A DNA stretch of 64,000 nt from Babesia bigemina (Eukaryota), in contig NC_027218.1 in NCBI RefSeq assembly GCF_000981445.1, positions 3,410,001-3,474,000 on the forward strand, read 5' to 3'. The notes under the pieces were generated by a model, which made no database searches, was not told the DNA's origin, and was given only the letters and a program-made list of their open reading frames with translations. A program made the position numbers and the translations under genes. Positions 1-64,000 of this stretch are shown one piece after another; position 1 is the stretch's first letter, and the number at the start of each line of letters is the position of its first letter.

Positions 1-62
1 CAGTCAGAAGGGAAGGAAAGGGTGACAAGGCACAAGTTATTGTAATGGTTTAGAAAGGTCAT
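1..62 (-). CDS. 5' leader of a further VESA-like gene running off the left edge (MTFLNHYNNLCLVTLSFPS...)
   Basis: ATG at 62 followed by the same leader (ACC..AAC CAT..AAT AAC TTG TGC CTT GTC ACC CTT) seen upstream of every large gene, directly adjoining an A array. Confidence 0.6.
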   Translation of the reverse strand, partial: MTFLNHYNNLCLVTLSFPSD

Positions 63-86
63 AGCGGTATTATGGCGGGGTAATTC

Positions 87-1970
87 AAGCGATGTAGAGT
101 GGATAAAGGGGCGATGTAGAGTGGATAAAGGGGCGATGTAGAGTGGGTTAAGGGGCGATGTAGAGTGGGTTAAGGGGCGATGTAGAGTGGGTTAAGGGGC
201 GATGTAGAGTGGGTAAAGGGGCGATGTAGAGTGGGTAAAGGGGCGATGTAGAGTGGGTTAAGGGGCGATGTAGAGTGGATGAAGTGGCGATGTGGAGTGG
301 ATAAGGGGCGATGTAAGGTGGATAAAGGGGCGATGTAGAGTGGGTTAGGGAGCGATGTGGAGTGGATAAGGGGCGATGTGGAGTGGATAAGGGGCGATGT
401 AGAGTGGGTTAGGGAGCGATGTAGAGTGGGTAAAGGGGCGATGTAGAGTGGGTAAAGGGGCGATGTAGAGTGGGTAAAGGGGCGATGTAGAGTGGGTTAA
501 GGAGCGATGTGGAGTGGACTAAGGGGCGATGTAGAGTGGGTAAGGGGCGATGTAAGGTGGGTTAGGGAGCGATGTAGAGTGGATAGAGGGGCGATGTAGA
601 GTGGGTTAAGGAGCGATGTAGAGTGGGTAAGGAGCGATGTAGAGTGGATAAAGGGGCGATGTGGAGTGGGTTAGTGAGCGATGTAAAGTGGATAAGGGAG
701 CGATGTAGAGTGGGTAAAGGGGCGATGTAGAGTGGGTTAGGGAGCGATGTAGAGTGGATTAAGGAGCGATGTAGAGTGGGTAAAGGGGCGATGTAGAGTG
801 GGTAAAGGGGCGATGTAGAGTGGATAAGGGGCGATGTGGAGTGGGTTAAGGGGCGATGTAGAGTGGGTAAAGGAGCGATGTAGAGTGGGTTAAGGGGCGA
901 TGTAGAGTGGATAAAGGAGCGATGTGGAGTGGGTAAGGGAGCGATGTAGAGTGGGTTAGGGAGCGATGTAGGGTGGATAAAGGGGCGATGTAGAGTGGAT
1001 TAGGGAGCGATGTAGAGTGGGTTAGGGAGCGATGTGGAGTGGATAAAGGGGCGATGTAGAGTGGGTTAAGGGGCGATGTAGAGTGGATAAAGGGGCGATG
1101 TAGAGTGGGTTAGGGAGCGATGTAGAGTGGGTTAGGGAGCGATGTAGAGTGGGTAAAGGGGCGATGTAGAGTGGGTAAAGGGGCGATGTAGAGTGGGTAA
1201 AGGGGCGATGTGGAGTGGGTTAAGGGGCGATGTAGAGTGGATAAAGGAGCGATGTAGAGTGGATAAAGGGGCGATGTATAGTGGATAAAGGAGCGATGTA
1301 AGGTGGGTTAGGGAGCGATGTAGAGTGGGTTAAGGGGCGATGTAGAGTGGATAAAGGAGCGATGTAAGGTGGTAAAGGGGCGATGTAGAGTGGGTTAAGG
1401 GAGCGATGTAGAGTGGGTTAGGGAGCGATGTAGAGTGGATAAAGGAGCGATGAAGAGTGGATTAAGGGGCGATGTAGAGTGGATAAGGGAGCGATGTAGA
1501 GTGGGTTAGGGAGCGATGTGGAGTGGGTTAAGGGGCGATGTAGAGTGGGTTAGGGAGCGATGTAGAGTGGGTAATGGAGCGATGTAGAGTGGATAAGGGA
1601 GCGATGTAGAGTGGGTTAGGGAGCGATGTGGAGTGGGTAAAGGGGCGATGAAGAGTGGGTTAGGGAGCGATGTAGAGTGGGTTAGGGAGCGATGTAGAGT
1701 GGATAAAGGGGCGATGTAGAGTGGATTAAGGGGCGATGTGGAGTGGGTTAGGGAGCGATGAAGAGTGGGTTAAGGGGCGATGTAGAGTGGGTAAAGGGGC
1801 GATGTAGAGTGGGTTAGGGAGCGATGTAGAGTGGGTTAGGGAGCGATGTAGAGTGGGTAAAGGGGCGATGTAGAGTGGGTAAAGGGGCGATGTGGAGTGG
1901 GTTAGGGAGCGATGTAGAGTGGATAAGGGAGCGATGTAGGGTGGGTTAGGGGGCGATGTAGAGTGGATGA
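87..1970. repeat. Repeat A array, 22-bp (some 21-bp) unit gcgatgtagagtgg(g/a)t(t/a)a(a/g)gg(g/a), ~85 copies
   Basis: gcgatg recurs every 22 nt (e.g. 133, 155). Confidence 0.97.
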
Positions 1971-2004
1971 TAATCACCACTTAGGTCATCAACTTGGTCG
2001 GCAC

Positions 2005-2280
2005 TGTCATCGCTACTGTGACCATGTCATCGCTGCCGTGACCATGTCATCGCTGCCGTGACCATGTCATCGCTGCCGTGACCATGTCATCGCTGCCGTG
2101 ACCAGTCATCGCTGCCGTGACCAGTCATCGCTGCCGTGACCAGTCATCGCTGCCGTGACCATGTCATCGCTGCCGTGACCAGTCATCGCTGCCGTAACCA
2201 GTCATCGCTGCCGTGGCCATGTCATCGCTGCCGTAACCATGTCATCGCTACCGTAACCATGTCATCGCTGCCGTGGCCAT
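2005..2280. repeat. Repeat B array, 20-bp unit catgtcatcgctgccgtgac (19-bp variants)
   Basis: Direct tandem copies. Confidence 0.95.
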
Positions 2281-2281
2281 C

Positions 2282-2460
2282 AACTTGGTCAGCACTTTGG
2301 TCAGCACGTTGGTCACCACATTGGTCAGCACTTTGGTCAGGTGCTTGGTCAGCACTTTGGTCATCACTTTGGTCAGCACATTGGTCAACACGTTGGTCAG
2401 CACTTTGGTCATGGCATTGGTCAGGTGCTTGGTCACCTCACTGCTCATGTGATTGGTCAT
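2282..2460. repeat. Repeat C array, 12-bp unit ttggtc+(agcaca/accact/atggca...)
   Basis: ttggtc every 12 nt. Confidence 0.95.
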
Positions 2461-2522
2461 CAGTGCAATCATTACTGTCTACAACATTAGGTGTCAGTTG
2501 TCAGTTAGGTGATCATGGTTAT

Positions 2523-2999
2523 TCAGCTGCGCAGTAGATACCGCACCCTGTGGAACGGCCGGATGCGGAAGTAGATCATGACGCAGATGACGACAATGAC
2601 GAGGGTGACGGGGACGATGATGTAAGGGATGACGGCGGGGGATGATGAATTAGGGGAGCTGGCTGAAAGCTCTCGACCGGAGCTGTGCTGCTCTACACGG
2701 GGAAGAGAGGCGGCATGGGAGGAAGTAGAGGAAAAACCGGCACGCTGTAGACTGTTGGACGAAACAGAACTGGAAGCAGTTGATCCTCTTTTGAGACCAC
2801 AATAACATGAACACGTGCGTTTCTTACACTCTTGACATCCATCGGGATGGCAATTCCCTCCTCCCCCACTGCGCTCTCGATAGAACTTCATACAGAAATA
2901 ACACCTCGTTCTAGTGCATCCTGCACAAGACACGTAACAGCAATAACAGTCACGCTCCGTACAGCTTTTGTTACACTTACAGTCCAACAGTCCACTCAT
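2523..2999 (-). CDS. Small Cys-rich single-pass membrane protein s1 (158 aa; R-type tail YFRIRPFHRVRYLLRS)
   Basis: ATG in GGGGAAG-ATG context, 16 Cys in first ~67 aa, Ser-rich linker, hydrophobic helix, basic tail; four paralogues in window. Confidence 0.85.
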   Translation of the reverse strand: MSGLLDCKCNKSCTERDCYCCYVSCAGCTRTRCYFCMKFYRERSGGGGNCHPDGCQECKKRTCSCYCGLKRGSTASSSVSSNSLQRAGFSSTSSHAASLPRVEQHSSGRELSASSPNSSSPAVIPYIIVPVTLVIVVICVMIYFRIRPFHRVRYLLRS

Positions 3000-3011: not shown

Positions 3012-4595
3012 CTCCCAGTCCCCTCAGCCTGCAAACATATCAATCACCTAAGCAGCACTCACCAACTGCAACACTACCACTGCCGCTCCCAGTCCCCTCA
3101 ACCTGCAATCATATCAATCACCTAGCAAGCACTCACCAACTGCAACACTACCACTGCCGCTCCCAGTCCCCTCAGCCTGCAAACATATCAATCACCTAAG
3201 CAACGCACTCACCAACAGCAACACTACCACTGCCGCTCCCAGTCCCCTCAACCAGCTAACATCAATCACTCAAGCAGCACTCACCAACTGCAACACGTAC
3301 CACTGCCGCTACCACTCCCCTCAACCTGCAGACATATCAATCACCTTGCAACGCACTCACCAACTGCAACACTACCACTGCCGCGCCCAGTCCCCTCAAC
3401 CTGCTAACATATCAATCACCTAGCAAAGCACTCACCAACTGCAACACTACCACTGCCGCTCCCAGTCCACTCAACCTGCGAACGTATCAATCACCTAGCA
3501 AGCACTCACCAACTGCAACACGTACCACTGCCGCTCCCAGTCCCCTCAGCCTGCAAACATATCAATCACCTAAGCAACGCACTCACCAACAGCAACACTA
3601 CCACTGCCGCTCCCAGTCCCCTCAACCAGCTAACATCAATCACTCAAGCAGCACTCACCAACTGCAACACGTACCACTGCCGCTACCACTCCCCTCAACC
3701 TGCAAGCATATCAATCACCTAGCAACGCACTCACCAACTGCAACACAACCACTGCCGCTCCCAGTCCCCTCAACCTGCGAACATATCAGTCACTCAAGCA
3801 GCACTCACCAACTGCAACACTACCACTGCCGCTCCCAGTCCCCTCAGCCTGCAAGCATATCAATCACCTAAGCAACGCACTCACCAACTGCAACACTACC
3901 ACTGCCGCTCCCTGTCCCCTCAGCCTGCAAGCATATCAATCACCTAAGCAGCACTCACCAACTACTACACGTACCACTGCCGCTCCCAGTCCCCGCAGCC
4001 TGCGAACATGTCAATCACCTAAGCAACGCACTCACCAACTGCAACACTACCACTGCCGCTCCACTCCCCTCAACCTGCAAACATATCAATCACCTAGCAA
4101 GCACTCACCAACTGCAACACTACCACTGCCGCTCCCAGTCCCCTCAGCCTGCGAACTATCAATCACCTAGCAACGCACTCACCAACTACAGCACGCACCA
4201 CTGCCGCTCCCACTCCCCTCAACCTGCAAACATCAATCACCTATGCAAGCACTCACCAACTGCAACACGTACCACTGCCGCGCCCAGTCCCCTCAACCTG
4301 CACGCATATCAATCACCTAAGCAGCACTCACCAACTGCAACGCGTACCACTGCCGCTCCCAGTCACCTCAACCTGCAGACATATCAATCACCTAAGCAGC
4401 ACTCACCAACTACAGCACGCACCACTGCCGCTCCCACTCCCCTCAACCTGCAAACATCAATCACCTATGCAAGCACTCACCAACTGCAACACGTACCACT
4501 GCCGCGCCCAGTCCCCTCAACCTGCACGCATATCAATCACCTAAGCAGCACTCACCAACTGCAACGCGTACCACTGCCGCTCCCAGTCACCTCAT
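3012..4595. repeat. Repeat D array, ~74-76-bp unit, ~21 copies, directly upstream of s1
   Basis: Unit caactgcaacactaccactgccgctcccagtcccctcaacctgcaaacatatcaatcacctagcaacgcactcac; actcac counted 21 times. Confidence 0.95.
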
Positions 4596-4599: not shown

Positions 4600-5105
4600 A
4601 CGTACCCTCACCCCTGTCTCCCCCCAGCCCAGGCTCCGACACCCACGCTGCCCGGGATACCACGGCTGCCCTGACGCGACGCATGTGATCGGCACCAACT
4701 GTCACTTTGAATTATTGAATATTCGCAACGCCATTAAGATTGCAGCGAACCCCGTGCGCTCAGCTCCCACAGTGCAGCAGCACCGTGCTACGAGCCGCAA
4801 TATAGACGCCATGCTGGCGGAGCGTGTCGGCTACGTGCCCAAATATCATATTAACAACCGCTACATCGCTGCCTATAAATGCTACTTAACCGGGCCAACG
4901 CTGATTACGCCACCCTGCCAGTGACTCGCAACACACGACTTAGGTCCCCCGCCGCGGCCCTCACGGCCGCCTACGTAGCAACCAATCACCCAGCCTCACG
5001 TGACACTCACTCAATAGGCAACGCGGACGCCTCTCTCAGTCAATGCACAGCTCAACGCACCAGGCAATCAACGTGCTACAACACCCACCAAATTACGGTT
5101 CATCC
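4600..5105. promoter_or_regulatory. Conserved ~500-bp non-repetitive spacer (candidate promoter region of small gene), copy 1 of 5
   Basis: Highly similar copies at ~13680, 22655, 44670, 60795, always between D and E arrays; function inferred from position only. Confidence 0.4.
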
Positions 5106-5107: not shown

Positions 5108-5315
5108 CAGCTCAGCACTTTGCCTGTGTGCCAGCTTACCACTTTGCCTGGGTGCTTGCTTACCACTTTGCCTGTGTGCTAGGTTAGCACATTGCCTGTG
5201 TGCCAGCTTAGCACTTTGCCTGGGTGCTAGGTTAGCACTTAGCCTGAGTGCTAGCTTAGCACTTTGCCTGGGTGCTAGGTTACCACTTTGCCTGAGTGCT
5301 AGGTCAACACGTTGC
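5108..5315. repeat. Repeat E array, 24-bp unit gcttagcactttgcctgggtgcta, ~8 copies
   Basis: Tandem copies; internal inverted repeat tagcac/gtgcta. Confidence 0.93.
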
Positions 5316-5461: not shown

Positions 5462-8400
5462 TTACGGTTGCAGGTACGATATCTTGGCAAGCCTTCCGAC
5501 TTGCGCCGCCGCCAACAGCGATTGCGCCGTTATCTTGTGCGACGACGGTATCCTCAGATGTGACCGTATGTGGAGCACATCCAGTCTGCCAACCATGACG
5601 CAGATGAGGTAGAAGAGGGACAGTGACCAGAGTGCGACGGTCATCCACAAGAAAGGTCCGCGGATGGTGAAAATGAATTCATCGCACTTTTCGAACAGCG
5701 TTCTGAAGTAGTTGGAATTTAATACATTGTTGAGTTGTTTGTAGAAATTGTGGCAATACCTTTTCCCCTCTGCAGCTGAAAGCGTTGCTGGATTGCCGAA
5801 CGTGAATCCGAAACTATACAACGTGCTTATGACACCGCGGCATTCAACGAGGCCTTTGCACTGGCAATTATAGGCAGCGCCATGCTTACCCCGTTTGCAA
5901 GCTGTGCCATGCGTACAGCGACGACATCCCCAATCCTGGCAGGATATGTTGGTAAACGCCCTGAACAAAGATTCAAGACACTGCCAGAACGACCACGGTA
6001 AGTACACTGCCCATGACAGGTAGAGACCGGCGTGCTTCTCGGCAGCGTAGTGGTATGCATCATTGTGCAACGTGGTCAGGTACGGAGCGCAGTGAACATC
6101 CTTGTTCGGATAGTTGCACGTAGTAGGCATTGAAAGCGTTGACAAGTCGGAGTCTGAAGCTTTGGGATGCTCGCCAACTTCGTGGCTCCGGCCGTTTTTG
6201 TAAGCGTCACTAAGCGCACCTGTGAGTGTGCCTGGATCCGCACACAAGTCGATGGACTGCTTCTTGATTGCCTTCACAAACGCAGCGTGGACAGCATTTG
6301 AGTTGACATCTCTGTTAGCATTAAACGCACCAACCAACGTGAGCACAAACTGGAAGTGCTCCGGCAGCGTGGATGGTGGCTTGGGCAGAAGGCACATCAG
6401 TGAGGATATTAAGCCTGTACCGAGGAAGGTCTTGATTGCGTCACACAACTGTCTGCCCGTTTTCGTGCTGCCCGAGAAGCCCTTGAATCCGAGAGGAAGC
6501 AGGCACGGTTGCCCTGGAGAGCTCTTGGAGCAGGTGCTGCATTTCGCTCTGCATCCCACTGACTGCAGTTGGTGCGGCAGATGGCCAGGGAGGCTGTCAC
6601 TGAGATATAACATTAGCGGGGACGTTGGTTGGCAGTTTACTTGACACCTTGCTTGGCTGTTTGCTTCATCGCCTGAGTGCTCGTTACACTGCGATTTGGT
6701 TGTAGGGATGTCCCTCCCGTAGCGGCAGTGTGACCAGCCGTGGTGTTCGGGCGTGATGTTACACTGCAGTTCCAGGAACCGGAACACGGGCAACAATCGG
6801 CGCAGTAGGTCCAGCAGCATGTCCAGGCAGTCCGACGGATCCGATGGGTAATGGAAATTAAATGAGTTGTTGCAGAAGTCGGAGGCGTAAACGGTCCTGG
6901 AGTCGCCAGTCCCGACGACGGCAGTCAATACGTCATACGACGTCGCACAGATGTGGTCCACGGCTTTACGTACGTAGTTATACGATATGTTCCGGGGGTG
7001 TGCTGTTATGGATTGGGCTGCCATGTCAGTCGATGTGAGCTCAAGTTCGTCGTCGCCGGCCGCCTTCTTATGCGGGTTGTCAAATAAGTCACTGATGGTG
7101 ATATCACGCATTGTAGAATATACGGCAGTGTACGGAAAACCGCTGAGCCAGATCAATATGTCGTATACGGAGCACGGGTGCTGCCTCGCTGAGGCCGTGA
7201 GCAGGTGGCACAGTTCATTGTACTGCTCGAAGTGGCTGAATATGCAGTCAATAGCGTCGAACACGTGGAAGTGATTGTCTTTTCTTTGCTCGTTCGATTT
7301 GCATCCCTTAAGATGTGCGTTGTCATCGGCGCCGCGAATTGGTAGCAGCAGCCGCTTTGCAACGTTCTCCCCCGCAACTGTCGGTCTGTTTTGCAACTCG
7401 CCGTTCTGCAGCGTCGCATCGGAGACCGCGTAGCCGTGGCCGACAAATGATCTTCCCACGTCGGTGGACTTATTAATTTGCTGTCCACGTAGACTCTTGC
7501 AATTGTGCGTCAAGTCGGTCAACGTGGAGTTGAGGGTGCATACCACGGTGAAGCATATTTTGGCGAATTTGGCGCCATACGGCGTTAATTTCTGCTTCTC
7601 AAACATCTCGCCGCCAAACGTCTCACTGTCGTAGGCGGAGATGTACGCCTTCGCTAGCTCATCGTGCATCCCCTGTACGCCCTTTCTTAGACACTCGAGC
7701 AGGAGGTTGCTGTCGTCGGCGTAGGATGCGGGGCGTAGGTTATCAAGTAAAGACTGGAGGGTGTTGAGTTTGGTGCTGAAATTGTGGTCGAAAAGGTGTT
7801 TTCTAGCTGCCGGAATGTCATGAAGGTGTTGCAGTAACGCATCTAATTTGTCCTTGAGATCGCCGACATTTTTGGTATGAGGAATTGGATCACCATCGAC
7901 AACCCGGACTGAAGGATTTCTATTTGACATGGTCTCAGTGTGATGTCTTTTAAGTTCGACGACGAGATACGTGTTGAGTGGATCGTACAATTTCTTGAAC
8001 TCCTGTGACAGCGTCTTGAATTCTTCTTTCTTCGACGCCTGTTTTTTGGTGACAGCTCCTTTAAACTCTTCCAGTTTACTCGACTGATTTCGGGGAGCGT
8101 AAAGATCCCATTGGGGTGGTGGTGCCGGTTTCCCCTCGAACGCCTCCATGAATCCCTTGAAGCCAGTGTGCTTGTCCTTTTCGATCGCCTCGGGCAGTCC
8201 CTTGAGGTGCGCGGTGACCCTGTCGGCGAAGTGAGTAAGCAACAGCTGGGTAGAGGTGACGTGATCTACGCGTGCTTTTTGGGTTATTAATTTTTTGGCA
8301 TCTTCAACTTGATTGTCAACGTGCTGGTTTAGCGACTTTATGTATTTGTCTTGTAAGTTTCGTGCGTCTTTCTGGATGAAGTCATCGGCCAACCCTATGA

Positions 8401-11140
8401 CCTCTGTCACATCTATCTCATGAAGCAAAACAAGCTGCTGTTTTATTTTCTGAATGCTCTCCGTTCCTATCCGCTTAGCCTCATCATACGCCCCGAAGTA
8501 TTTATCCCTCAAATCGGTCAAGTTTCCCCTGGCGAATTGGGCGTCTTCTTCGATAAGCTGGAACAGCTCATGGAGAGCAGTGGTGACTTTTTTCAATTCT
8601 TCTTCTGCATATTGTTTTTCACTGTCGATCTTTCCCAATGCTTGTTCTACCTGGGTCTTAATGTCCCTGATCTTCTTTGGAAGTGCGCCTTCAAACTTTT
8701 CTGGCTCATCACCAATAAGGCTATCTTGTTGTACTTGCTTTTCATAATTTACAAATTTACCTCTCTGCAAATCGGATATTCTATCAACATCGGCTGGTCT
8801 GCCCATTGCATCCCCGCCGATCTCCGTATTAAGTTTGTCAGCGACAGCTTTCTGAAATTTGCCTTCTTCGAGCTCAGCGTTAATACTGTCGTACGTAGTT
8901 TTGAATGTCTTCATGATATGATCAAAATCATAATTCTTTGTACCATCGCCGTAATTCTGAGTATCCTTCTTCTTAAACGTTTGCGGGATGACAGTCGATT
9001 TAAGGTTGTCAAGTTTCTGCTTAATGTTTTTATTGAAATCGTCCACCAACGCCTGAAGGCCTCTAGAGTTTTTATGCTGGCTTCCGTCGCTGTACGTAAC
9101 TGGAACGTCACTTTCGTCACCATTATCTACGCCCTTTATGATAACATCCACCTTAGCATTTATAGCTTGCGCAACAGTTCCTATCTCCGACGCAAGTTGT
9201 ATTTCAATGACTTCAATAACTTGGAGTAACACGTCTTTAAAGTGCTGCGATACACTTTTAGCAATGTTGCCTAGGTCTGTAAGTATAGATTCCACTTCCT
9301 CCCTACTTATTGAGCTACTTCTACCAATTAGTTTTGGTAGTATTTGCTGAATAGCAGACACATGCGGTTTAATAATTTCTCTTATACTATCTACACCTTG
9401 AAAATTCTCCTTACCCATTGTCACTGACTGTAAGTCAGTTATCTGAACAGTGCCGTTTGCAATGCCGTCAAGCGCGCGAAGCTCCTGCGCAGCTTCTTTA
9501 ACAGCACTCTGTACATCATCATATATCGCACCGCTTGCGAATTTTTTCCACACTGCACCCATTTTGTTTATCGCCGCCTGGACTTGGACCATCACATTGG
9601 TGTCGAGCGTCATTATATATTCACTAACGGAGTCAAACGCATCGCCTGCTTTTATAGCCTGTAATAATTTGGTTTCACCATTGATCGCAGCGACATCAAG
9701 AATCTGTAACTTACTAAGCTGGCTTTCCACACCGCTGATAGCCTCCTGAATCGCTCTCTGTGTAGCTTCGATTTTTTCGTAAAATCCGTCCGAATTGGTT
9801 TTGAGGGGAGTGAGGATACGAGTTATTGCATCTTCAATCCTCCACAATCCATCCTTCACATGCCCTTCCAACTTCTCATACGGCGTTCTAATCGACTCTT
9901 CGACATGTTTCCAAATCGCTCCCTTAATGGCTCCTTTAACCTTATACAAATCCTCCTTCAGCGCGTCATTCATATCCTTAACCTGCCCAAGCGCTGCAGT
10001 AACTTTCTCTTTGACCTGCGCTTTAGCCGCCTCTCCGGCGCCGTGAAGTATCAATACAGATGCTGTGATCTCCCTTAGAGCACCCTCAATTTTATACGGC
10101 TTCATACTTGAATCACCTTTATTAACCTCTTTTAATATCGAATCAACTCTACCCAAAGCCGCCGTTATGACTATCGTAACTGAATCAATCCACTTAGTTA
10201 ACTCATCCACATACCCTGTCAGCGTTCTTTTTATGTCCTCCAATTGCAACTTGATTTTCGTTACCCTTTCTTTCATATCGTTAATAAGCTTCGTTACTTG
10301 ACCTCTAATTTCCCTATTCACGCAGGCTCCTGCATCAGTCAACACACGTTCAATCTCTCTTTCCATGTCCTGTAGGTGTTTCTCTTCCTTCCTGGATAGT
10401 TCACGCAGATGCTTTGTCTCAAGCTTAACGGAGTCACACGCTATGTTAACTCTGTCACGCAAATTAGAATTAAGATCATTAATCGAAATTTTTATATCTT
10501 TGTGATTACGATCGATATCTAAAGTTTCAAAAAAATTGGTTGCATTCCGAACAGATTGTTTTACTAGGTTTTCGGCGTCCAATGCAGCTTCCTGTGCAGT
10601 CTGAGGCCTGCGTATGTCTATATTCTTATTTAACTCACTTACCTGTTTTTTGAAGGCATCATTTACCTGTTCTAATAATCTGATTATAGGATCTGAAACC
10701 CTTTTATTAGACTTCATGACACCATCATTATACCCCCCCACCCCTTCGACCACCTTCACAATCGCAACACTAAAACCTTTTTTACCGGCGTGTTTATTGG
10801 TCTCAAGTGACGTAATTGCATTGTTTATTTCTCCTTTATGCTGCCCTAAATGCTTGTGGATGTTACTGAGAACACCACTCAGAAATCCCATCACCCCGTC
10901 ACACAGCCTATCCAAGTCGGAGTACACAATTCCAGTGCCGTCGTAGCCTTTGGAGTCAGAGTTGAAGCCGAGGAATTTTTCGAGGCCAGTACAGAGGTTA
11001 GTAAGGATGTTAGTAGGGTTGTTATTTAAGGTATTTTTGAGGTTCACAATTTTGTCAAATTTCTTGTCAAGCTCCCTAGGCGGCACACGGTCAGGGCAGT
11101 GGCAAGAGGTGGAAGAGGGAAGTGAAGGGTGACAAGGCAC
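5462..11140 (-). CDS. ves: VESA-like variant erythrocyte surface antigen G1 (tail A, short N-terminus); start uncertain (leader ATG 11169 out of frame, first in-frame ATG 10891)
   Basis: 1892-codon ORF, GIVYSDLDRLCDGVMGF motif, Cys-rich C-terminal domain, TM, tail HKITAQSLLAAAQVGRLAKISYLQP; family assignment from recalled Babesia VESA features. Confidence 0.85.
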   Translation of the reverse strand: MPCHPSLPSSTSCHCPDRVPPRELDKKFDKIVNLKNTLNNNPTNILTNLCTGLEKFLGFNSDSKGYDGTGIVYSDLDRLCDGVMGFLSGVLSNIHKHLGQHKGEINNAITSLETNKHAGKKGFSVAIVKVVEGVGGYNDGVMKSNKRVSDPIIRLLEQVNDAFKKQVSELNKNIDIRRPQTAQEAALDAENLVKQSVRNATNFFETLDIDRNHKDIKISINDLNSNLRDRVNIACDSVKLETKHLRELSRKEEKHLQDMEREIERVLTDAGACVNREIRGQVTKLINDMKERVTKIKLQLEDIKRTLTGYVDELTKWIDSVTIVITAALGRVDSILKEVNKGDSSMKPYKIEGALREITASVLILHGAGEAAKAQVKEKVTAALGQVKDMNDALKEDLYKVKGAIKGAIWKHVEESIRTPYEKLEGHVKDGLWRIEDAITRILTPLKTNSDGFYEKIEATQRAIQEAISGVESQLSKLQILDVAAINGETKLLQAIKAGDAFDSVSEYIMTLDTNVMVQVQAAINKMGAVWKKFASGAIYDDVQSAVKEAAQELRALDGIANGTVQITDLQSVTMGKENFQGVDSIREIIKPHVSAIQQILPKLIGRSSSISREEVESILTDLGNIAKSVSQHFKDVLLQVIEVIEIQLASEIGTVAQAINAKVDVIIKGVDNGDESDVPVTYSDGSQHKNSRGLQALVDDFNKNIKQKLDNLKSTVIPQTFKKKDTQNYGDGTKNYDFDHIMKTFKTTYDSINAELEEGKFQKAVADKLNTEIGGDAMGRPADVDRISDLQRGKFVNYEKQVQQDSLIGDEPEKFEGALPKKIRDIKTQVEQALGKIDSEKQYAEEELKKVTTALHELFQLIEEDAQFARGNLTDLRDKYFGAYDEAKRIGTESIQKIKQQLVLLHEIDVTEVIGLADDFIQKDARNLQDKYIKSLNQHVDNQVEDAKKLITQKARVDHVTSTQLLLTHFADRVTAHLKGLPEAIEKDKHTGFKGFMEAFEGKPAPPPQWDLYAPRNQSSKLEEFKGAVTKKQASKKEEFKTLSQEFKKLYDPLNTYLVVELKRHHTETMSNRNPSVRVVDGDPIPHTKNVGDLKDKLDALLQHLHDIPAARKHLFDHNFSTKLNTLQSLLDNLRPASYADDSNLLLECLRKGVQGMHDELAKAYISAYDSETFGGEMFEKQKLTPYGAKFAKICFTVVCTLNSTLTDLTHNCKSLRGQQINKSTDVGRSFVGHGYAVSDATLQNGELQNRPTVAGENVAKRLLLPIRGADDNAHLKGCKSNEQRKDNHFHVFDAIDCIFSHFEQYNELCHLLTASARQHPCSVYDILIWLSGFPYTAVYSTMRDITISDLFDNPHKKAAGDDELELTSTDMAAQSITAHPRNISYNYVRKAVDHICATSYDVLTAVVGTGDSRTVYASDFCNNSFNFHYPSDPSDCLDMLLDLLRRLLPVFRFLELQCNITPEHHGWSHCRYGRDIPTTKSQCNEHSGDEANSQARCQVNCQPTSPLMLYLSDSLPGHLPHQLQSVGCRAKCSTCSKSSPGQPCLLPLGFKGFSGSTKTGRQLCDAIKTFLGTGLISSLMCLLPKPPSTLPEHFQFVLTLVGAFNANRDVNSNAVHAAFVKAIKKQSIDLCADPGTLTGALSDAYKNGRSHEVGEHPKASDSDLSTLSMPTTCNYPNKDVHCAPYLTTLHNDAYHYAAEKHAGLYLSWAVYLPWSFWQCLESLFRAFTNISCQDWGCRRCTHGTACKRGKHGAAYNCQCKGLVECRGVISTLYSFGFTFGNPATLSAAEGKRYCHNFYKQLNNVLNSNYFRTLFEKCDEFIFTIRGPFLWMTVALWSLSLFYLICVMVGRLDVLHIRSHLRIPSSHKITAQSLLAAAQVGRLAKISYLQP

Positions 11141-11194
11141 AAGTTATTGCTATGGGTTATAGAGGTCATAGCGGTATTATGGCGAGGTGATTCG

Positions 11195-55500: not shown

Positions 55501-57705
55501 TTTCATCACTAGGTTCAACTGCTGTTCTAACAGCTGGATTTTACTGTCTGCCTCAAGCTGGGCATCATCAACAGCGCTGGGAATTTTTTCAAGCATTGGA
55601 ATAATGGAGTTCATTGCTATTTTTGCAGCATCATATAGCGATTTGTTTGTTTCATACTCTCCAAGAAGTTTCGTGTTTACTTTTTTTCCATCAACATGCG
55701 TAAAAGTGTAGTTGACGTGCTCTTTTATCCCATTGATCATATTCCTAAAGGCACCGTTCTCTTTTTGAGTCAGGGCTTTTTTCGTCAGTTGATAATATTC
55801 CGACATGATTTTGCTGAAGGTAGTTTCGATATCCCCTATTGCCTTGTCTACTTCTTTCACGATGTCTTCTCCAATAACGGTGAATAATGATTTCTCTGAG
55901 CCTCCATTTTTATGTCTAGCCGTTTTAAGATTTTCTAGCGAATATAATAATGTTCTTCGTCCGTATTGGTTTGGTTCTGATGCATCTTGCCCCGATAAGC
56001 TTTTTACATTTTGTAGGCCATCGGCGGTTTTCGTAAGCCACTGTCTAATTTCAGTACCATCCAGTGTTCCGAGATTTGAGATACTAACAGCAACACCTCT
56101 GATACCTTTAGCAGCGTCTTCATACTTTGCTTCATTTAACTGTAGAACAAATCCTTCAATGGCATTCTTAACAGTTTTGGTTTTCAAACCTATCAAGTCG
56201 CTTTTAATAGATTGGTCAACGTTGTTAATGAACTCCACTGCCCTACGGACAGCCGCCTCAACTAATCCATTAACCGACAACAACTTCGCTGTATAATCGT
56301 TCTCTATACCCGTGCCTGCCCCTGCCATCTGGTCAAACTGAAGTCTGAGATTAGATTTATCCCCACGTGTAGGATTAATCTCCGTCGTCTCATTGCGTAG
56401 TCTGACAAACAATTCTTTCGTATCATTTCTACATTCCGTAAACGCATCCAGCAAATCTTCGACGTTATACACAGCTGAGTCAATCGCTTCCGTCACCAAC
56501 TTTAACTGCGCATCTTTTTGTTGACCCATAATTTTAATCCTATCTCCAACTTTTCCTATTTCAACATCTAATGTCTTCTGTAAATTCGTGATGCCAATGT
56601 TAACAGTTCCATTGAGTTTTTGTTTCTGACTCACAAGCGCGGTGTCCATGGCCCGAGCAAAGTGCTTCACCTCAACGTCTTCCGTCACCCTATGAAAACC
56701 CTCCACTGCCTGCAAGAGCAATTTAACGTTATATGTTAACATACCTTTTAGATGTTCATCGAGCTTTTTAACGGCTTCGTCGACATTATTCGCTCTAGCA
56801 GTAATGAATTTCCCCCCCGTGGAAGCGTCTGACAATTGTTGAGTAAGAGGCTTCGAGATTGGCTTATTAAATTCTGATTTGGCAGTTTTAATGCTTTCCG
56901 TAAGTTGCTTAAATGCGTTTTTAACTACTTCAATTTCTGCATCTAATCCACTCTCATACCCCTGCAGCCCGCTCCTAACCTTCCCAATGGCATAGGCAAA
57001 TCCCGAAACGCCAAGTCCCTTGCCTATCGTGGATTTTAAAGTGTTAATTGTATCTGTTATTTCAGGATTGTAATGTTTTAATAGGTCCATACTTCCCTCC
57101 AGACATTTAAGCAAAAATCCCATCACTGCATCACACAGCCTGTCAAGGTCGGAGTACACAATCCCACTGCCAGTGTAGCCTTTGGTGGCAGAGTCGAAGC
57201 CGAGGAAAGTTTCGAGGCCGTCACATAAATTAGTAAGAAGATTTTTAGGATCATTTGGTGACTTACTAACATTATCATAATTTTCACAAAGCTTCTTCAC
57301 TTTCTCCAAAGCCTCCAACTTGGAGTGCAATTTGTCTGAGTCAGCAGAGGGAGAGGGGGAAGAAGGAAGAGGATTAGGATGGTTATTAGGCTGTTGAAGT
57401 TGATCATTAAGACGATTAATTTCTGCAGTAACTAACTTACTAAGCTCACTAATTTTCTCGGTGTCAACAGCCTGGCCAGCAGACTTGACAGACACAGAAA
57501 GGGTAGTAACAAGAGAAGAGTAAAGCTTTTTAAGCTCTTCATGACTGTTTATTTTAGCGATAATAGCATTCTTAACGGCTTTCTTAACACTCTCACTTTG
57601 ACCAACAAATCCTCCAAGCTTACCAGCCAATTCACCAAGCTGGACAATCTTCTCTTCAACAGACTTAAGAGCCTGGGACTTGGGAGAGGGGTCGAAGGGT
57701 GACAA
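52534..57705 (-). CDS. ves: VESA-like protein G7 (tail B, long N-terminus); ORF-track start is TTG, leader ATG 57739 out of frame, first in-frame ATG 57123
   Basis: 1723-codon ORF with family motifs. Confidence 0.85.
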   Translation of the reverse strand: MSPFDPSPKSQALKSVEEKIVQLGELAGKLGGFVGQSESVKKAVKNAIIAKINSHEELKKLYSSLVTTLSVSVKSAGQAVDTEKISELSKLVTAEINRLNDQLQQPNNHPNPLPSSPSPSADSDKLHSKLEALEKVKKLCENYDNVSKSPNDPKNLLTNLCDGLETFLGFDSATKGYTGSGIVYSDLDRLCDAVMGFLLKCLEGSMDLLKHYNPEITDTINTLKSTIGKGLGVSGFAYAIGKVRSGLQGYESGLDAEIEVVKNAFKQLTESIKTAKSEFNKPISKPLTQQLSDASTGGKFITARANNVDEAVKKLDEHLKGMLTYNVKLLLQAVEGFHRVTEDVEVKHFARAMDTALVSQKQKLNGTVNIGITNLQKTLDVEIGKVGDRIKIMGQQKDAQLKLVTEAIDSAVYNVEDLLDAFTECRNDTKELFVRLRNETTEINPTRGDKSNLRLQFDQMAGAGTGIENDYTAKLLSVNGLVEAAVRRAVEFINNVDQSIKSDLIGLKTKTVKNAIEGFVLQLNEAKYEDAAKGIRGVAVSISNLGTLDGTEIRQWLTKTADGLQNVKSLSGQDASEPNQYGRRTLLYSLENLKTARHKNGGSEKSLFTVIGEDIVKEVDKAIGDIETTFSKIMSEYYQLTKKALTQKENGAFRNMINGIKEHVNYTFTHVDGKKVNTKLLGEYETNKSLYDAAKIAMNSIIPMLEKIPSAVDDAQLEADSKIQLLEQQLNLVMKSLKFIESVLRSAAERLHSAIDDIHEALSNASKKFKTAVSQLQSTLLATVSSAFSTLTHQVQSLFAKQKQAEFAALESVVTAQLQEIERVIQADRESGVKGFLSRLKGDVDASGSAVSPNKLDAMITVVGRANQTPKETLGRFAPLASVFKTYADDIFTYIEWQVKTPKKFDTPGQGTLLERNKQSKQVANIKSKIDQLLGHLINHDNKIYNYDTIFCAYLRELINAVGSLTADTFGEGRHPNLLNLLKDAMTHFDKELNYAYVSTYSDRTLFDDDPSKYAKVCLTTLPVLYTELTQLKEGIERTGENWRFYSMYNSSQPRAGLYGVFFRHNGYDVGRDRNIDRGELNNKATMNSNIILRHLATGDHVLFSPAFTQLDGAEGSLENESEPTFDVVHEEGVIPKLYAVIKPYNQISHLSTSFATKTPCSVYEQLIWLSGLQFNTAFGRLLNHVPELFMVPDELNPSRKVLQPINAHTKSVLPAHISDAIEHLSEHAYLLLAGILGTGDANTIYACDFGSNSHKLKYPTSGEECFDMLLDILRRLFTPLKFLMTQCGLSAKHNGWNDCTYGKGIATTNWPCNDHSRDKATCQPKCQANCQPNCRTTSPLMSYLNDCLPGHLPHTLETIGCKSKCLTCPSNKKGMPCITPFGFRAFSGSTRTGAELCDMIAKFLDNEYCTSLFCLAPTPPATLPEHFGFALSIAQNVNPATTVYSKIKTFAGAFESSIKTQSINLYEDPFALTKPIINAYGSDSVKHGECEYYHLRNLTSDSLCKHKANRIGSASFLSPLCSDSYDILANKHSKAYLSWVVYSPWTFWNYLNNLYNEFCNVVCQDWGCRQCMAGDACKRGKHGSEKYSCHCKSIVLCKGVSPTLYRCGFMFADASTLNTKDSVQTCFDFQMKLNKILNSQYFTDLFTECDNFLWTIRTPFSYLVLALWLLSLLYLIHIMVIRLDLLHIKSHLHSPSSHRIAAQSLLAAGRVNKLNRVFYLQP

Positions 57706-57766
57706 GGCACAAGTTATTGCTATGGTTTATAGAAGTCATAGCGGTATTATGGCGAGGTGATTCAAA

Positions 57767-59904: not shown

Positions 59905-60099
59905 TTAGCTGTAGAATGCGATGCAGAAGGGTATCTTGCGTACGAGGAAATCGCGGATGTTGCGGCCCACCGGGAAGCGGAAGATGCACAGGTCGAGCAG
60001 GATGATGGCGACGATGATGGCAACGATGACGGCGGCGATGGCGGAGTAGGGAGGGGGGGATAGTGGAGTAGTCACCTCACTGCTCATGTAATTTGCCAT
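59905..60099 (-). other. Orphan F-type TM+tail cassette, in frame with leader (64-aa ORF)
   Basis: ORF track MANYMSSEVTTPLSPPPYSAIAAVIVAIIVAIILLDLCIF...CIAFYS. Confidence 0.7.
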
Positions 60100-60158: not shown

Positions 60159-60611
60159 TTAGCTGCGCAGTAGATACCGCACCCTGTGGAACGGCCGGAT
60201 GCGGAAGTAGATCATGACGCAGATGACGAGGATGATGAGGGCGACGGGGACGAGGATGTAAGGGGTGGGAGAAGATGGTGAGTCGGAGGTATTACTCTGC
60301 TCTGCGATGATATACTGTACATCATGGGAAGATGTGGATACCGATGGAGCGGATGTAGAGCGTCTCTGTTCGCAACATGGACATTCACAGCCGGATTTAT
60401 CACACTCACTGCATTTCTTTGTACATTTCGGTGGTTTGCATTCGTCTTTTAATGTGCCTACTTGGCGTTGGTAGAAAAAGTTATAACAGTATATGCATCC
60501 TCTATTTTGACATTTTACACAACACCAATAACAGCAATTACACTTCACGAGCAATATACACCCATTATTACAATCGTTACAAGGTAGACCACCATACGTC
60601 CCTTTAGACAT
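60159..60611 (-). CDS. Small Cys-rich single-pass membrane protein s5 (150 aa; R-type tail)
   Basis: Same architecture and start context as paralogues. Confidence 0.85.
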   Translation of the reverse strand: MSKGTYGGLPCNDCNNGCILLVKCNCCYWCCVKCQNRGCIYCYNFFYQRQVGTLKDECKPPKCTKKCSECDKSGCECPCCEQRRSTSAPSVSTSSHDVQYIIAEQSNTSDSPSSPTPYILVPVALIILVICVMIYFRIRPFHRVRYLLRS

Positions 60612-60617
60612 CTTCCC

Positions 60618-60785
60618 CTGCCGCTCCCGGTCCCCTCAACCTGCAAACATCAATCACCTAGCAAGCACTCACCAACTGCAACACTACCACTGCCGCTACC
60701 ACTCCCCTCAACCTGCAAACATATCAATCACTCAAGCAGCACTCACCAACTGCAACACTACCACTGCCGCTCCCAGTCCCCTCAT
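60618..60785. repeat. Repeat D array, ~2 copies
   Basis: Same unit. Confidence 0.88.
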
Positions 60786-60794
60786 CAACACTTA

Positions 60795-61293
60795 CCCTCA
60801 CCCCTGTGTCCCCCCAGCCCAGGCCACCGACACCCACGCTGCCCGGGATACCACAGATGCCCTGACGCGGCGCATGTGATTAGCACGAACCGTTACTTTA
60901 AATTATTCACTATTCGCAACGCCATAAAAATTGCAGCGACCCGTGAGCTCAACTCCCACAGTGCAGCAGCACCGTGCTACGAGCCGAGATATCGGCGCCG
61001 TGCTGGCGGAGCGTGTCGGCTACGTGCCTAAATGTGATATCAACAATCGCTACATTGCCGCCTATAAATGCTACTCAACCAGGCCAACGCAGATAACGCC
61101 ACCCTGCCAGTGACTCGCAACACACGACTTAGGCCACCCGCCGCGGCCCTCACGACCGCCTACGTTAGCGACCAATCACCCAGCCTCACGTGACACTGAC
61201 TCAATAGGCAACGCGGACACCTCGCACAGTCAACGCGTGACTCAACGCACCAGGCAATCAACGTGCTACTACACCCACCAAATTACTATTCAT
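60795..61293. promoter_or_regulatory. Conserved ~500-bp spacer, copy 5
   Basis: Similar to 4600-5105. Confidence 0.4.
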
Positions 61294-61295
61294 CC

Positions 61296-61577
61296 GCTAG
61301 CTTAGCACTTTGCCTGGGTGCTAGTTTACCACTTTGCCTGGGTGCTAGCTTACCACTTTGCCTGGTTGCTAGCTTAGCACTTTGCCTGCGTGCCAGCTTA
61401 GCACTTTGCCTGGGTGCTTGCTTACCACTTTGCCTGGTTGCTAAGTTAGCACTTTGCCTGGGTGCCAGCTTAGCACTTTGCCTGGTTGCTAGGTTAGCAC
61501 ATTGCCTGGTTGCTAGCTTAACACTTTGCCTGGATGCTAGCTTAGCACATTGCCTGGGTACTGGGTTAGCACGTTGC
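61296..61577. repeat. Repeat E array, ~11 copies
   Basis: Same unit. Confidence 0.93.
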
Positions 61578-61723
61578 ATTGTCTTTCCGTCATCACCTAA
61601 TCTAGGTACTTTTTAGTTCACAGGTTGCCGCTAGAGTAATTCGAGACATTAGACTACGTTTGTCGGTTAGGTGAGTAGGTGAATTATTACGTGAGTTGCT
61701 GTGAATTGCAAGTGTGAATACAA

Positions 61724-64000
61724 TTACGGTTGTAGATACGATATCTTGGCAAGCCTTCCGACTTGCGCCGCCGCCAACAATGACTGCGCTGTAATCTTGT
61801 GCGATGACGGTATCCTCAGGTGTGAGCGTATGTGGAGCACATCCAGTCTGCCAACCATTACGCAGATGAGGTAGAAGAAGGATAGTGACCAAAGTGCGAC
61901 GGTCATCCACAAGAAAGGTGCGCGGATGGTGAACATGAAATTGTCAATGGCTTTGAAAAACTGCACAAGATGTGAGTCTTTGTCAAATGCCTCCGCAAAT
62001 ACATCGCAGAAATCTCTGCACGTGCGTTTTGTATGCGATTGTCCATCCCTGTTCAGCCTCTCTGGATCGCCGAGAACGAAGCCGTATTTTGCCAATGTCG
62101 GCAGCGTTGAATTGCACTTTACAATGGATTTGCATTTGGGATCGTGATATCGTGGCGGTTTGTACGTAGTTGATGTAGTTGTACATTCCTTGATGCACGC
62201 CTTTTCATGGCAATTCGACCCCTTGAAACCGCATTTGGAATTGCACTCATCGTACAACTTTTTAAGCAGATCGTAAAACGTCGCCGTCAGGTAAACGATC
62301 CACGACAAATATTTATCGGCATGCTTCGATGAAAACATACCGTAGATGGATTTATTGATCGGACGCAAATATGGACCACATACGACGGCGTCATTCGACG
62401 TGCATACGAGACTTCCCAGGCTACCAGCGGAATGCCCCGTCCACGCTTCTGAGTGACTAAAGGAAAATATGTAGTAAACCTTTAGCTCTTCATAATTAAC
62501 GCCAAAGTTTGCATTGTTCACCGCAGTGTTGAATGCTGCTTCCCTATGCTCGCTATTACCCATGCTCCAGCGATTGGTGAAATTGTAGTAAAAGGCGAAC
62601 ATATCGCCGAGAGTCTGCGGAGGCGTTTGTAACAGACAGTTGAAGTAACCACAAAGTTTCGTAAGTGGACTACCCTGTTTTCCACAAAATTCTGCAAGCA
62701 CCTTCCTAAGATGTTCACCTATCTGAGTATGCGATGCCATAGTGCTTATATCTGTAAAGCCCATTGGCGTCTTACACGGTATGCCGCGATGGTTGGACAC
62801 AGTGCATTCTAGTTTACAACCTGGTTTCTTAAATGAGTGTGGTAGAAAACCCGGCAAACCATCCTCTAAGTATGACTGTAACGGAGATTTTACACCGCAC
62901 TTAGGGTGTAACTCACACGTTTGGTTGACCTTTTGGTTACACTTTTGGTCAGCGCATTGCTTTGAGTTGCACTTCCAATCTGACCCACCGATTGCATTGC
63001 CATACAAACAACCCCGCCACCCGGAACAGCTTTCGTCGTTGCAGCATTGGCAGCATACGAAGTAGAGCTGTTGGTAAAGACGATTCAAGATGTCTACCAG
63101 CATATCAATGCATTGGCCGTAGCGAGAGGGATACGAGAACCCTTGAGAATTGGTGTTGAAGTCCACCGCGTATATTCCGTCCGCGTGTCCATGACCAAGT
63201 ATAGATGTAAGTACGTCGTGAGCCTGATGGCATACTTCCGTCAGCATGCCTGATATTCCTCCAACTGTGATGTTCTCCGGGTGAGCAGGCAGAGTGTCGG
63301 CGTCGTCGGTTTCAAGCAAGATGTCGTCCCCCTCACTGTTAGCAGCGTTGTTCTCCTCCTTCTCAAACAGCTCACTGAATCCGTTAAATGACAACGGTTG
63401 GTAGACAGGATTGTATGGAAAACCGGACAACCATAGCAGCATTTGGTATACGCTCGACGGTTGCTTGGTGGCGAACATGGTACCGTAATGGCAGACTTCG
63501 TAGTAATGATGTAAGTGGGTGAACAGTTGAGCTAATATGCCCCCTTTTTCTTTGAAATACTCAAAGCACTCACCAACGGAATTTAGTTCACTGGGATCCT
63601 TGTTGAACGTCTTGTGACGCGTGAAGCCTCTGCTCAATCTGAAGGCAACTTCTTTACCGGTGTACGTTTTCTTTAGGCTCTCAATCCCGTAGCCATGGAT
63701 CGTCAGGTAATCCCTCAACATATTTGTATTTTGGTTCCCGGTGTCAGTGCCGGCAACGAAGTGCTCCTTCCACGTTTTACCGCCGTGGTAGAACAAATGA
63801 TGCAACTCATCGACGTAACTGGTCACGCAGGTCAAAAACACCTTCGCGCAATTATTTCCATTTGTCGTCAAAATCATATTCTGATCGGAGTCCTGCACTT
63901 TTTGAGCGCTTTGCTGCTTAGGGTCTTTTAACAACCAATCGGTGATTGCCGGCGAGCCATCGTACCTACTGACATACGCCCTCCCAAGTTCACCTACAAG
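61724..64000 (-). CDS. ves: VESA-like protein G8, 3' part only (tail A); frame open to the window edge
   Basis: 759 open codons, Cys-rich C-terminal domain, TM, AKISYLQP tail. Confidence 0.88.
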   Translation of the reverse strand, partial: LVGELGRAYVSRYDGSPAITDWLLKDPKQQSAQKVQDSDQNMILTTNGNNCAKVFLTCVTSYVDELHHLFYHGGKTWKEHFVAGTDTGNQNTNMLRDYLTIHGYGIESLKKTYTGKEVAFRLSRGFTRHKTFNKDPSELNSVGECFEYFKEKGGILAQLFTHLHHYYEVCHYGTMFATKQPSSVYQMLLWLSGFPYNPVYQPLSFNGFSELFEKEENNAANSEGDDILLETDDADTLPAHPENITVGGISGMLTEVCHQAHDVLTSILGHGHADGIYAVDFNTNSQGFSYPSRYGQCIDMLVDILNRLYQQLYFVCCQCCNDESCSGWRGCLYGNAIGGSDWKCNSKQCADQKCNQKVNQTCELHPKCGVKSPLQSYLEDGLPGFLPHSFKKPGCKLECTVSNHRGIPCKTPMGFTDISTMASHTQIGEHLRKVLAEFCGKQGSPLTKLCGYFNCLLQTPPQTLGDMFAFYYNFTNRWSMGNSEHREAAFNTAVNNANFGVNYEELKVYYIFSFSHSEAWTGHSAGSLGSLVCTSNDAVVCGPYLRPINKSIYGMFSSKHADKYLSWIVYLTATFYDLLKKLYDECNSKCGFKGSNCHEKACIKECTTTSTTYKPPRYHDPKCKSIVKCNSTLPTLAKYGFVLGDPERLNRDGQSHTKRTCRDFCDVFAEAFDKDSHLVQFFKAIDNFMFTIRAPFLWMTVALWSLSFFYLICVMVGRLDVLHIRSHLRIPSSHKITAQSLLAAAQVGRLAKISYLQP

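What the first reader, a model, noticed from the sequence alone, without database searches (positions are those of the whole stretch)
1..64000. Strict modular grammar: co-oriented ves-like genes and small Cys-rich genes joined by five ordered repeat families
Seen: every ves 5' end (8 of 8) is preceded in transcription order by C, B, then A arrays. Every small gene is preceded by E array, spacer, then D array. Order right-to-left: G8(A)-s5-G7(B)-G6(A)-s4-G5(B)-G4(B)-G3(A)-s3-G2(A)-s2-[B remnant]-G1(A)-s1-G0. Flanks are near-identical while coding middles are highly divergent. Known: the B. bovis active ves1alpha/ves1beta pair is head-to-head and diversifies by segmental gene conversion; trypanosome VSG conversion uses upstream 70-bp repeats and a conserved 3' end. 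Inference: a head-to-tail antigen-variation array in which repeats and conserved tails act as homology anchors and/or regulatory modules.
Basis: partly seen in the sequence, partly recalled or inferred. Interest (0 to 1): 0.8.

Follow-up and report, generated by a model that had tools for sequence, protein, structure and literature searches.

The report
Headless antigen gene library in Babesia
Near a chromosome end of the cattle parasite Babesia bigemina, surface-antigen (ves1b) genes that lack their front end lie head-to-tail with small cysteine-rich membrane-protein genes between five fixed repeat types, and they likely form a silent library that is copied into complete genes to vary the parasite's surface.

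Summary
The repeat grammar is real: 33 arrays of five minisatellites (22, 20, 12, 75, 24 bp; 23% of the window), one orientation, order exactly as written, except that array C is vestigial before G5 (7 of 8) and flanks are about 90%, not near-100%, alike. The large genes are known B. bigemina ves1b. A fixed junction replaces it, open in only 2 of 7, with under 200 non-repeat bases upstream, while 11,895 body codons are unbroken. G3's body recurs elsewhere (1,581 identical residues) behind native upstream coding, switching inside a conserved coding block. Every exchange boundary found lies in coding sequence, so repeats as conversion anchors is unsupported. Best reading (0.55): a silent donor archive, like Pneumocystis msg-I or B. 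bovis functional pseudogenes; silence and direction of transfer are inferred. The small genes form an unnamed family of about 38 with a conserved promoter-like spacer. New variant of a known kind.

The parts
1..64 (-). G0: fixed junction at the head of a further ves copy running out of the window
   Evidence: junction probes at 64 and 41
89..1966 (.). array A (22 bp), 85 copies
2005..2461 (.). arrays B (2005-2280) and C (2285-2461)
2523..2999 (-). s1, small Cys-rich single-pass membrane protein gene, 158 aa, tail type T1
3012..4594 (.). array D (75 bp), with 18 GTGAGT..GCAG mini-intron-like segments of 33-36 nt
4615..5105 (-). conserved non-repeat spacer, candidate promoter of the small gene (inferred)
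5109..5315 (.). array E (24 bp)
5462..11143 (-). G1, ves1b body, A tail; junction ATG out of frame
11196..11585 (.). arrays A (11196-11277), B (11309-11459), C (11464-11585)
11710..11883 (-). remnant of a B-type ves tail, open frame
11994..12682 (-). three spare small-gene tails (T2, T2, T1) each with 3' flank
12754..13215 (-). s2, 153 aa, T1
13228..14521 (.). array D (13228-13667), spacer (13690-14180), array E (14184-14521)
14692..20367 (-). G2, ves1b body, A tail; doubled junction, not open; keeps about 130 more N-terminal codons than G1,G3-G6
20555..21402 (.). arrays A (20555-20987), B (21000-21166), C (21172-21402)
21556..21731 (-). spare T2 tail
21841..22401 (-). s3, 186 aa, T2
22408..23245 (.). 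array D (22408-22645), spacer (22666-23158), array E (23162-23245)
23371..28476 (-). G3, ves1b body, A tail; stop in the junction frame; body shared with P0137 from about 28365 on
28619..29403 (.). arrays A (28619-28905), B (28925-29012), C (29021-29403)
29529..34814 (-). G4, ves1b body, B tail; stop in the junction frame
34965..36290 (.). arrays A (34965-35484), B (35498-35996), C (36004-36290)
36418..41865 (-). G5, ves1b body, B tail; junction ATG in frame
41890..43352 (.). arrays A (41890-43157), B (43173-43314) and vestigial C
43464..43632 (-). spare T2 tail
43702..44151 (-). s4, 149 aa, T1
44164..45691 (.). array D (44164-44670), spacer (44679-45164), array E (45168-45691)
45850..51249 (-). 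G6, ves1b body, A tail; junction ATG in frame
51275..52408 (.). arrays A (51275-51705), B (51725-52164), C (52170-52408)
52534..57726 (-). G7, ves1b body, B tail; short junction out of frame; keeps about 130 more N-terminal codons
57768..59808 (.). arrays A (57768-58632), B (58650-59289), C (59294-59808)
59905..60088 (-). spare T2 tail
60159..60611 (-). s5, 150 aa, T1
60612..61577 (.). array D (60612-60784), spacer (60805-61292), array E (61296-61577)
61724..64000 (-). G8, 3' part of a ves1b gene, A tail; 5' end outside the window

Best explanation
The window is part of a chromosome-end tandem array of Babesia bigemina ves1b copies that have intact bodies but lack the N-terminus of complete ves1b genes, and it likely works as a silent archive whose sequence is copied by recombination into complete, expressed ves1b loci. 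Shown: truncation, fixed junction, intact bodies, sequence exchange among copies and with complete genes, with boundaries inside coding sequence (one in the conserved 5' YSDLD block, many at the start of the Cys-rich half). Inferred: that the copies are silent, that transfer runs archive to expression locus, and that the array is built from two kinds of 3' block (A tail + E + spacer + D + small gene; B tail alone) each ending in C-B-A-junction, reshuffled by unequal or ectopic recombination. The repeats would then serve array turnover and possibly silencing or clustering, as proposed for Plasmodium TAREs, not conversion into the expressed gene. The small genes are likely transcribed on their own from the spacer, with D as an amplified 5'-leader intron unit (untested).
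For: First 110 residues of 7 complete ves1b find no real match in the window (best E 0.008); G2 and G7 align to complete P0085 from residues 129 and 124, the other five from 223-267. Junction ATG open in 2 of 7; frameshift in G1, G7, stop in G3, G4, doubled and closed in G2, against 11,895 unbroken body codons. Junction codons 1-42 pN 0.091, pS 0.131; next 53 codons pN 0.07-0.10, pS 0.24-0.28 (G3-G6). Only 127-196 non-repeat bases between each junction ATG and the upstream stop (8 of 8). Complete BBBOND_0305020 spans 5,226 bp for 1,741 codons, so no intron holds the arrays there. P0137 equals G3 at residues 38-1618 but has native coding upstream. G2 and P0001 (another chromosome) are 100% alike over 1190-1891, 21-55% before. 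Complete P0061 and P0069, both in the published proteome, share 90-97% tracts with P0043/P0070 and P0059, which lack the N-terminal motif. Complete genes are scattered on a 98-row tree (6 changes; shuffles 6.8). None of 18 VESA1b proteome rows carries a tag of this array; the 3 I could check are complete.
Against: No RNA test of silence succeeded. In one RNA-seq table (other strain) G5 and G8 show 1-2 CPM, complete 0305020 3-9 CPM, and three complete loci are not listed: inconclusive. 15 of 18 proteome rows were not checked for their N-terminus, and that strain differs too. Direction of transfer is not shown. P0137 lies on a 6.2-kb unplaced contig, also lacks the N-terminal motif in its annotated form, and could be a mis-join, an allele or a less truncated copy. 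'Lacks the motif' in database proteins may be annotation error. Against P0058 the G2 and G7 alignments extend to residues 13-20 at 34-37% identity, so these two may lack less. Fully intact bodies and tails under purifying selection fit expression in place as well. Two complete genes (P0058, P0065) share little or no recent tract with the other hits. Tail type mostly follows the body (11 changes vs 33 shuffled).
Confidence: 0.55

Rival explanations
1. The copies are expressed in place as N-terminally shortened antigens, from the junction ATG or the Met after the YSDLD block, by in situ switching, with the repeats acting as promoter or leader intron.
For: Bodies unbroken; that Met is present in 7 of 7; array A is nearly free of AG on the sense strand (4 in 5.8 kb) and holds 63 CTAAC branch-like words; low reads on G5, G8; in situ switching is reported for B. 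bovis (PMC7485966).
Against: No unique upstream sequence; junction closed in 5 of 7; codons upstream of that Met still show protein-level constraint, which a leader would not need; AG-poverty follows from 5% G.
Confidence: 0.17
2. One reading: arrays C-B-A upstream and the tail downstream are the homology anchors, as with trypanosome 70-bp repeats, and also stand at the expression site.
For: Fixed position before every junction (8 of 8 B-A); a G-rich template strand with 29 four-tract G motifs in A against 11 in the other 49 kb; G4 near ves proposed in B. bovis (PMC9047050).
Against: Located boundaries are all in coding sequence; complete genes have coding sequence where the cassettes have the array; G motifs are fewer than in shuffles (38) and absent from 3 of 8 arrays. 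DNA of expression loci was not available, so this is not excluded.
Confidence: 0.11
3. A by-product: subtelomeric segmental duplication of one truncated unit, with neutral minisatellites; exchanges are ordinary ectopic recombination with no donor role.
For: Two duplicated blocks explain the whole grammar; array lengths vary up to about 20-fold; spare tails look like recombination debris, 3 of 6 out of frame with the nearby ATG.
Against: No stop in 11,895 codons despite 15-19% identity between neighbours; spacer more conserved (9% divergence) than synonymous tail sites (34%).
Confidence: 0.14
4. The periodicity is an assembly artefact.
For: No laid contig spans a whole unit; many relatives lie on small unplaced contigs.
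Against: No exact duplicate of 120 bp outside arrays; each body is unique; all five repeats occur in runs of other studies, and contigs cross spacer-E (X1, X4) and A-B (X1) boundaries.
Confidence: 0.03

Closest known systems
BbigVes1b family of Babesia bigemina (PMC4066756)
   Same: These are its members; mosaicism, turnover at fixed loci and tandem chromosome-end copies are described there.
   Different: In the parts read, that paper does not describe the intergenic repeats, the fixed junction, the 5' truncation or the small membrane-protein family.
B. bovis non-paired ves1 'functional pseudogenes' (PMC2034396)
   Same: Truncated ves1 copies proposed as donors for segmental gene conversion; short gene portions repeated downstream of ves1.
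   Different: B. bovis has head-to-head alpha/beta pairs with a short bidirectional promoter; here copies are head-to-tail, uniformly headless, with bodies intact and five ordered minisatellites.
Pneumocystis msg-I with CRJE and UCS (PMC5676039)
   Same: Subtelomeric, co-oriented, intact genes lacking promoter and N-terminus, starting at a conserved block, among smaller genes with their own promoters.
   Different: The block here is 75-89% alike, not an identical 33 bp; several complete genes exist, no single expression site is shown; genes point away from the contig end; no homology.
Plasmodium falciparum TARE1-6 and SPE2 (PMC2829057)
   Same: [quoted passage not shown]
   Different: TAREs occur once per chromosome end; here the ordered set recurs before every gene. 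No binding protein is known; no sequence homology was tested.
Trypanosoma brucei VSG with 70-bp repeats (PMC6152948; role as conversion boundary recalled)
   Same: Repeat upstream and conserved 3' end around a variable antigen.
   Different: The 70-bp repeat stands at donors and expression sites; here complete genes carry coding sequence at that position and located boundaries are in coding DNA.
BbigVes2 and B. bovis smORF
   Same: Short multicopy genes beside ves1.
   Different: Those have a signal peptide and no membrane anchor; s1-s5 have a C-terminal membrane helix, no signal, 17-22 Cys and no detectable likeness to ves1b.

Membership tests
BbigVes1b | Assigned to ves1b in the published annotation | tested here: met
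   G2, G5, G8 accessions are labelled ves1b; five more ves1b accessions fall in the same run and fit G1, G3, G4, G6, G7 by order
BbigVes1b | Conserved C-terminal domain with one membrane helix and short tail | tested here: met
   8 of 8; same two tails in the homologues
BbigVes1b | Complete N-terminal region | tested here: not met
   absent in 7 of 7 with visible 5' end; so truncated members
B. bovis LAT | Divergent ves pair with short bidirectional promoter | tested here: not met
   all genes on one strand
Silent donor archive (msg-I / functional pseudogene type) | Copies lack promoter and N-terminus yet keep an intact body | tested here: met
   promoter absence inferred from 127-196 non-repeat bases
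Silent donor archive (msg-I / functional pseudogene type) | Conserved junction block shared with complete genes and used as an exchange point | tested here: inconclusive
   block shared; one switch there (G3/P0137) on an unplaced contig
Silent donor archive (msg-I / functional pseudogene type) | Not transcribed in place | tested here: inconclusive
   proteome and RNA tables are from other strains
Silent donor archive (msg-I / functional pseudogene type) | Directional transfer into an expression locus | not testable with these tools
   needs clone pedigrees
VSG 70-bp-repeat type anchor | Same repeat upstream of donor and expression site, boundaries in the repeat | not testable with these tools
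   no DNA of expression loci; located boundaries are in coding sequence
BbigVes2 / smORF (for s1-s5) | Signal peptide, no membrane anchor, likeness to ves1 5' end (ves2) | tested here: not met
   C-terminal helix, hydropathy 2.9-3.3; N-terminal maximum 1.1 or less; profile finds no ves hit under E 5
TARE-type subtelomeric repeats | Heterochromatin and a sequence-specific binding protein | not testable with these tools
   needs ChIP

The most novel reading that the evidence does not exclude
B. bigemina runs a two-part antigen system: a few complete loci supply promoter and N-terminal domain, whole 5-kb ves1b bodies are swapped in from repeat-insulated headless cassettes at the conserved YSDLD block, and the unnamed small Cys-rich membrane proteins are a separately promoted, co-varying second antigen family, perhaps the partner of VESA1b in place of VESA1a, which the published proteome did not detect.
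Probability: 0.22. Interest if true: 0.8.

Novelty: new variant of a known kind. Interest (0 to 1): 0.57.

Why it matters
How B. bigemina varies its surface is open: PMC4066756 found ves1b but no ves1a protein and no clear expression locus. If many ves1b copies are headless cassettes, the candidate expression loci shrink to the few complete genes (7 of 95 B. bigemina hits carry the N-terminal motif), and switching becomes testable with defined primers. The small family (about 38 genes, unnamed, some copies apparently unannotated) is a new candidate red-cell surface antigen set. The repeats help explain why 37-44% of ves1b loci failed to assemble in other strains (PMC4066756 Table 2; link inferred).

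Tried and rejected
No whole genome was held, so genome-wide co-location of repeats and genes was not tested on DNA; indirect only: 22 of 38 small-family gene models carry text translated from array D at their start (one, P0145, is probably s4 itself), and 8 of 95 B. bigemina ves hits start in the junction. No RNA holder was listed. Most of the G3 body had no cover in the four runs laid; run X2 is identical over 607 bases, may be source data and was not counted. Pfam: no family above its cut-off for small proteins or complete ves1b; one coiled-coil family passed by score for G5 and was set aside. Longer relatives of the small proteins: none among 7,993 candidates, weak evidence. Atlas: best score 0.85, generic single-pass proteins. 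Fold of s3: pLDDT 58.5, only the membrane helix confident, not searched further. The 3 weakest of 40 profile hits looked unrelated and were dropped. G-quadruplex role: not above shuffles. A as telomere repeat: no TTTAGGG in it. Arrays inside an intron of complete genes: rejected for 0305020. Spare tails as small genes: 3 of 6 in frame. Using locus-tag adjacency to extend the grammar: dropped, since G2 and G3 have consecutive accessions although s3 lies between. Breakpoint clustering at the start of the Cys-rich half (41 of 86 pair tracts) counts related pairs many times and was not taken as a hotspot test. Supplement of PMC10975891: no rows. Earlier scan notes: none.
Full report
Observation. 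Tandem Repeats Finder and probe mapping give five minisatellite families: A 22 bp (8 arrays), B 20 bp (8), C 12 bp (7), D 75 bp (5), E 24 bp (5), together 14,497 bp. All lie in one orientation, with one stray unit outside the arrays, and all 110 masked self-matches are direct. A-type tails are followed by E-spacer-D-small gene (5 of 5), B-type tails by C-B-A (4 of 4 with the remnant). Shuffled module order never came near this, but two duplicated blocks explain it equally. C is vestigial before G5. Flanks average 89-91% identity; body middles 15-19% amino-acid identity. No exact duplicate of 120 bp exists outside arrays; all five repeats occur in runs of other studies, with contigs crossing spacer-E (X1, X4) and A-B (X1), though none spans a unit. 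An artefact is unlikely.

Identity. The best 120 of 243 homologues are 95 B. bigemina and 25 B. ovata proteins. Gene coordinates place the window 45-109 kb from the end of a 3,518,759-bp chromosome III contig, genes pointing inward. G2, G5 and G8 are labelled ves1b, and five further ves1b accessions fit the other genes by order.

Seven of the 95 B. bigemina hits begin with an N-terminal motif (L-R-E-A/S-I-D-W; first recalled, then seen). Their first 110 residues have no real match in the window; G2 and G7 align to complete P0085 from residues 129 and 124, the other five from 223-267 (against P0058 the G2 and G7 alignments extend weakly to residues 13-20). Instead, each copy starts with the same junction directly after array A (8 of 8). 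Its ATG reads openly into the gene in G5 and G6 only; G1 and G7 are out of frame, G3 and G4 have a stop, G2 has a doubled, closed junction. Junction codons 1-42 show little protein constraint (pN 0.091, pS 0.131) while the following block and the tails do. From the YSDLD block to the stop, 11,895 codons in 7 genes have no break. Only 127-196 non-repeat bases lie between each junction and the upstream stop. One complete gene is intronless, so the arrays are not its intron. Eight other database proteins start in the same junction; 48 start at the Met after the block and cannot be judged.

Exchange. P0137 equals G3 at residues 38-1618 but carries native coding sequence upstream; the switch is inside the YSDLD block. 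It sits on a small unplaced contig, so a mis-join or allele is possible. G2 and P0001, on different chromosomes, are identical over 1190-1891 and 21-55% alike before; P0003 and P0027 are patchworks with G2 and G1. Complete P0061 and P0069 share 90-97% tracts with copies lacking the motif; P0058 and P0065 share little. On a FastTree of 98 C-terminal segments (P0008, the window's duplicates and B. ovata left out) complete genes do not cluster (6 changes, shuffles 6.8) and tail type changes 11 times against 33. Every boundary located is in coding sequence; boundaries in repeats could not have been seen with proteins alone.

Expression. None of the 18 VESA1b rows of the published proteome has a tag from this array; the three among my tagged hits are complete; 15 were not checked. 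An RNA table from another strain gives 1-2 CPM for G5 and G8, 3-9 for one complete gene, and omits three others. Silence is therefore inferred, not shown.

Small genes. s1-s5 encode 149-186 aa with 17-22 Cys, an S/P-rich stalk, one C-terminal membrane helix, no signal peptide and one of two tails; outer parts are 28-42% alike. Searches gave 38 distinct family proteins; all 25 named are B. bigemina hypothetical proteins. They are not ves2 or smORF by definition and show no likeness to ves1b. Their 490-bp upstream spacer diverges 9%, less than synonymous tail sites (34%), which suggests a promoter or frequent homogenisation. Array D holds 34 intron-like segments of 32-36 nt. Function is unknown; a variant red-cell surface or export protein is the likeliest guess.

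Mechanism. Best (0.55): a silent archive of headless, intact ves1b cassettes feeding complete loci by recombination in coding blocks; repeats serve turnover and perhaps silencing. Rivals: expression in place (0.17), neutral duplication (0.14), repeats as anchors (0.11), artefact (0.03).

Comparison and novelty. Truncated donors are proposed for B. bovis (PMC2034396); headless intact subtelomeric genes with a junction block are the Pneumocystis msg-I plan (PMC5676039); ordered repeat arrays recall TAREs (PMC2829057). It works like these; it is a member only of ves1b. Five literature searches and term look-ups in PMC4066756, PMC5660447, PMC10463595 and PMC6630957 showed no description of these repeats, the junction or the small family; subscription papers, figures and the Sanger gene-model files were not visible. 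Seen: PMC4066756 parts 3-7 of 10, passages, supplement 2 whole, rows of supplement 3; PMC5660447 and PMC9806345 passages and supplement rows; PMC10975891 supplement search only; passages only for PMC10463595, PMC6630957, PMC9047050, PMC2034396, PMC7485966, PMC5676039, PMC2829057, PMC6152948, PMC7909277, PMC12025327. The role of 70-bp repeats as conversion boundary is recalled.

Verdict. Real feature, known gene family, apparently undescribed architecture: new variant of a known kind, interest 0.57.

Noticed in passing
window 10973, 34743 (BiIB); 10920, 41615, 57152 (BiIBN): Two primers of the widely used SpeI-AvaI diagnostic PCR for B. bigemina (sequences from PMC7909277, PMC12025327) match the conserved ves1b 5' block with 2 mismatches; the two partner primers were not found in the window. 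The target is thus likely a ves1b 5' segment, which would fit the assay's sensitivity and its reported cross-reaction with B. ovata.
   Followed up: partly
window 60088, 43632, 21731, 12682, 12423, 12135: All six spare small-gene tails begin at the same point, where array C would otherwise start; T1 and T2 types are mixed, so they are not simple copies of the neighbour. P0159 shows the same join elsewhere.
   Followed up: partly
D arrays: 34 segments of 32-36 nt run from GTGAGT to GCAG; the spacer ends in a donor-like GAGG/GT in 5 of 5 and the last acceptor lies just before the small-gene ATG. Possibly an amplified intron-exon unit.
   Followed up: partly
arrays C and E: Both follow a 3' flank and share GTGCT and CAAA words on the sense strand; E may derive from a C dimer.
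   Followed up: no
window 12754-13215 and 21841-22401: s2 and s3 seem absent from the public annotation: flanking ves accessions are consecutive (inferred).
   Followed up: no
P0006, P0010, P0011, P0014, P0017 (B. ovata): Gene models of about 3,000-3,300 aa join two ves copies, suggesting head-to-tail arrays in B. ovata too.
   Followed up: no
ves 5' ends, codons before YSDLD: Third positions are strongly C/T-rich and G-poor (up to 57% C) compared with the body, continuing the skew of array A into coding sequence.
   Followed up: no
BBBOND_0305020/0305030 and 0312140/0312160: Small-family genes also lie next to complete ves1b genes by locus tag.
   Followed up: no
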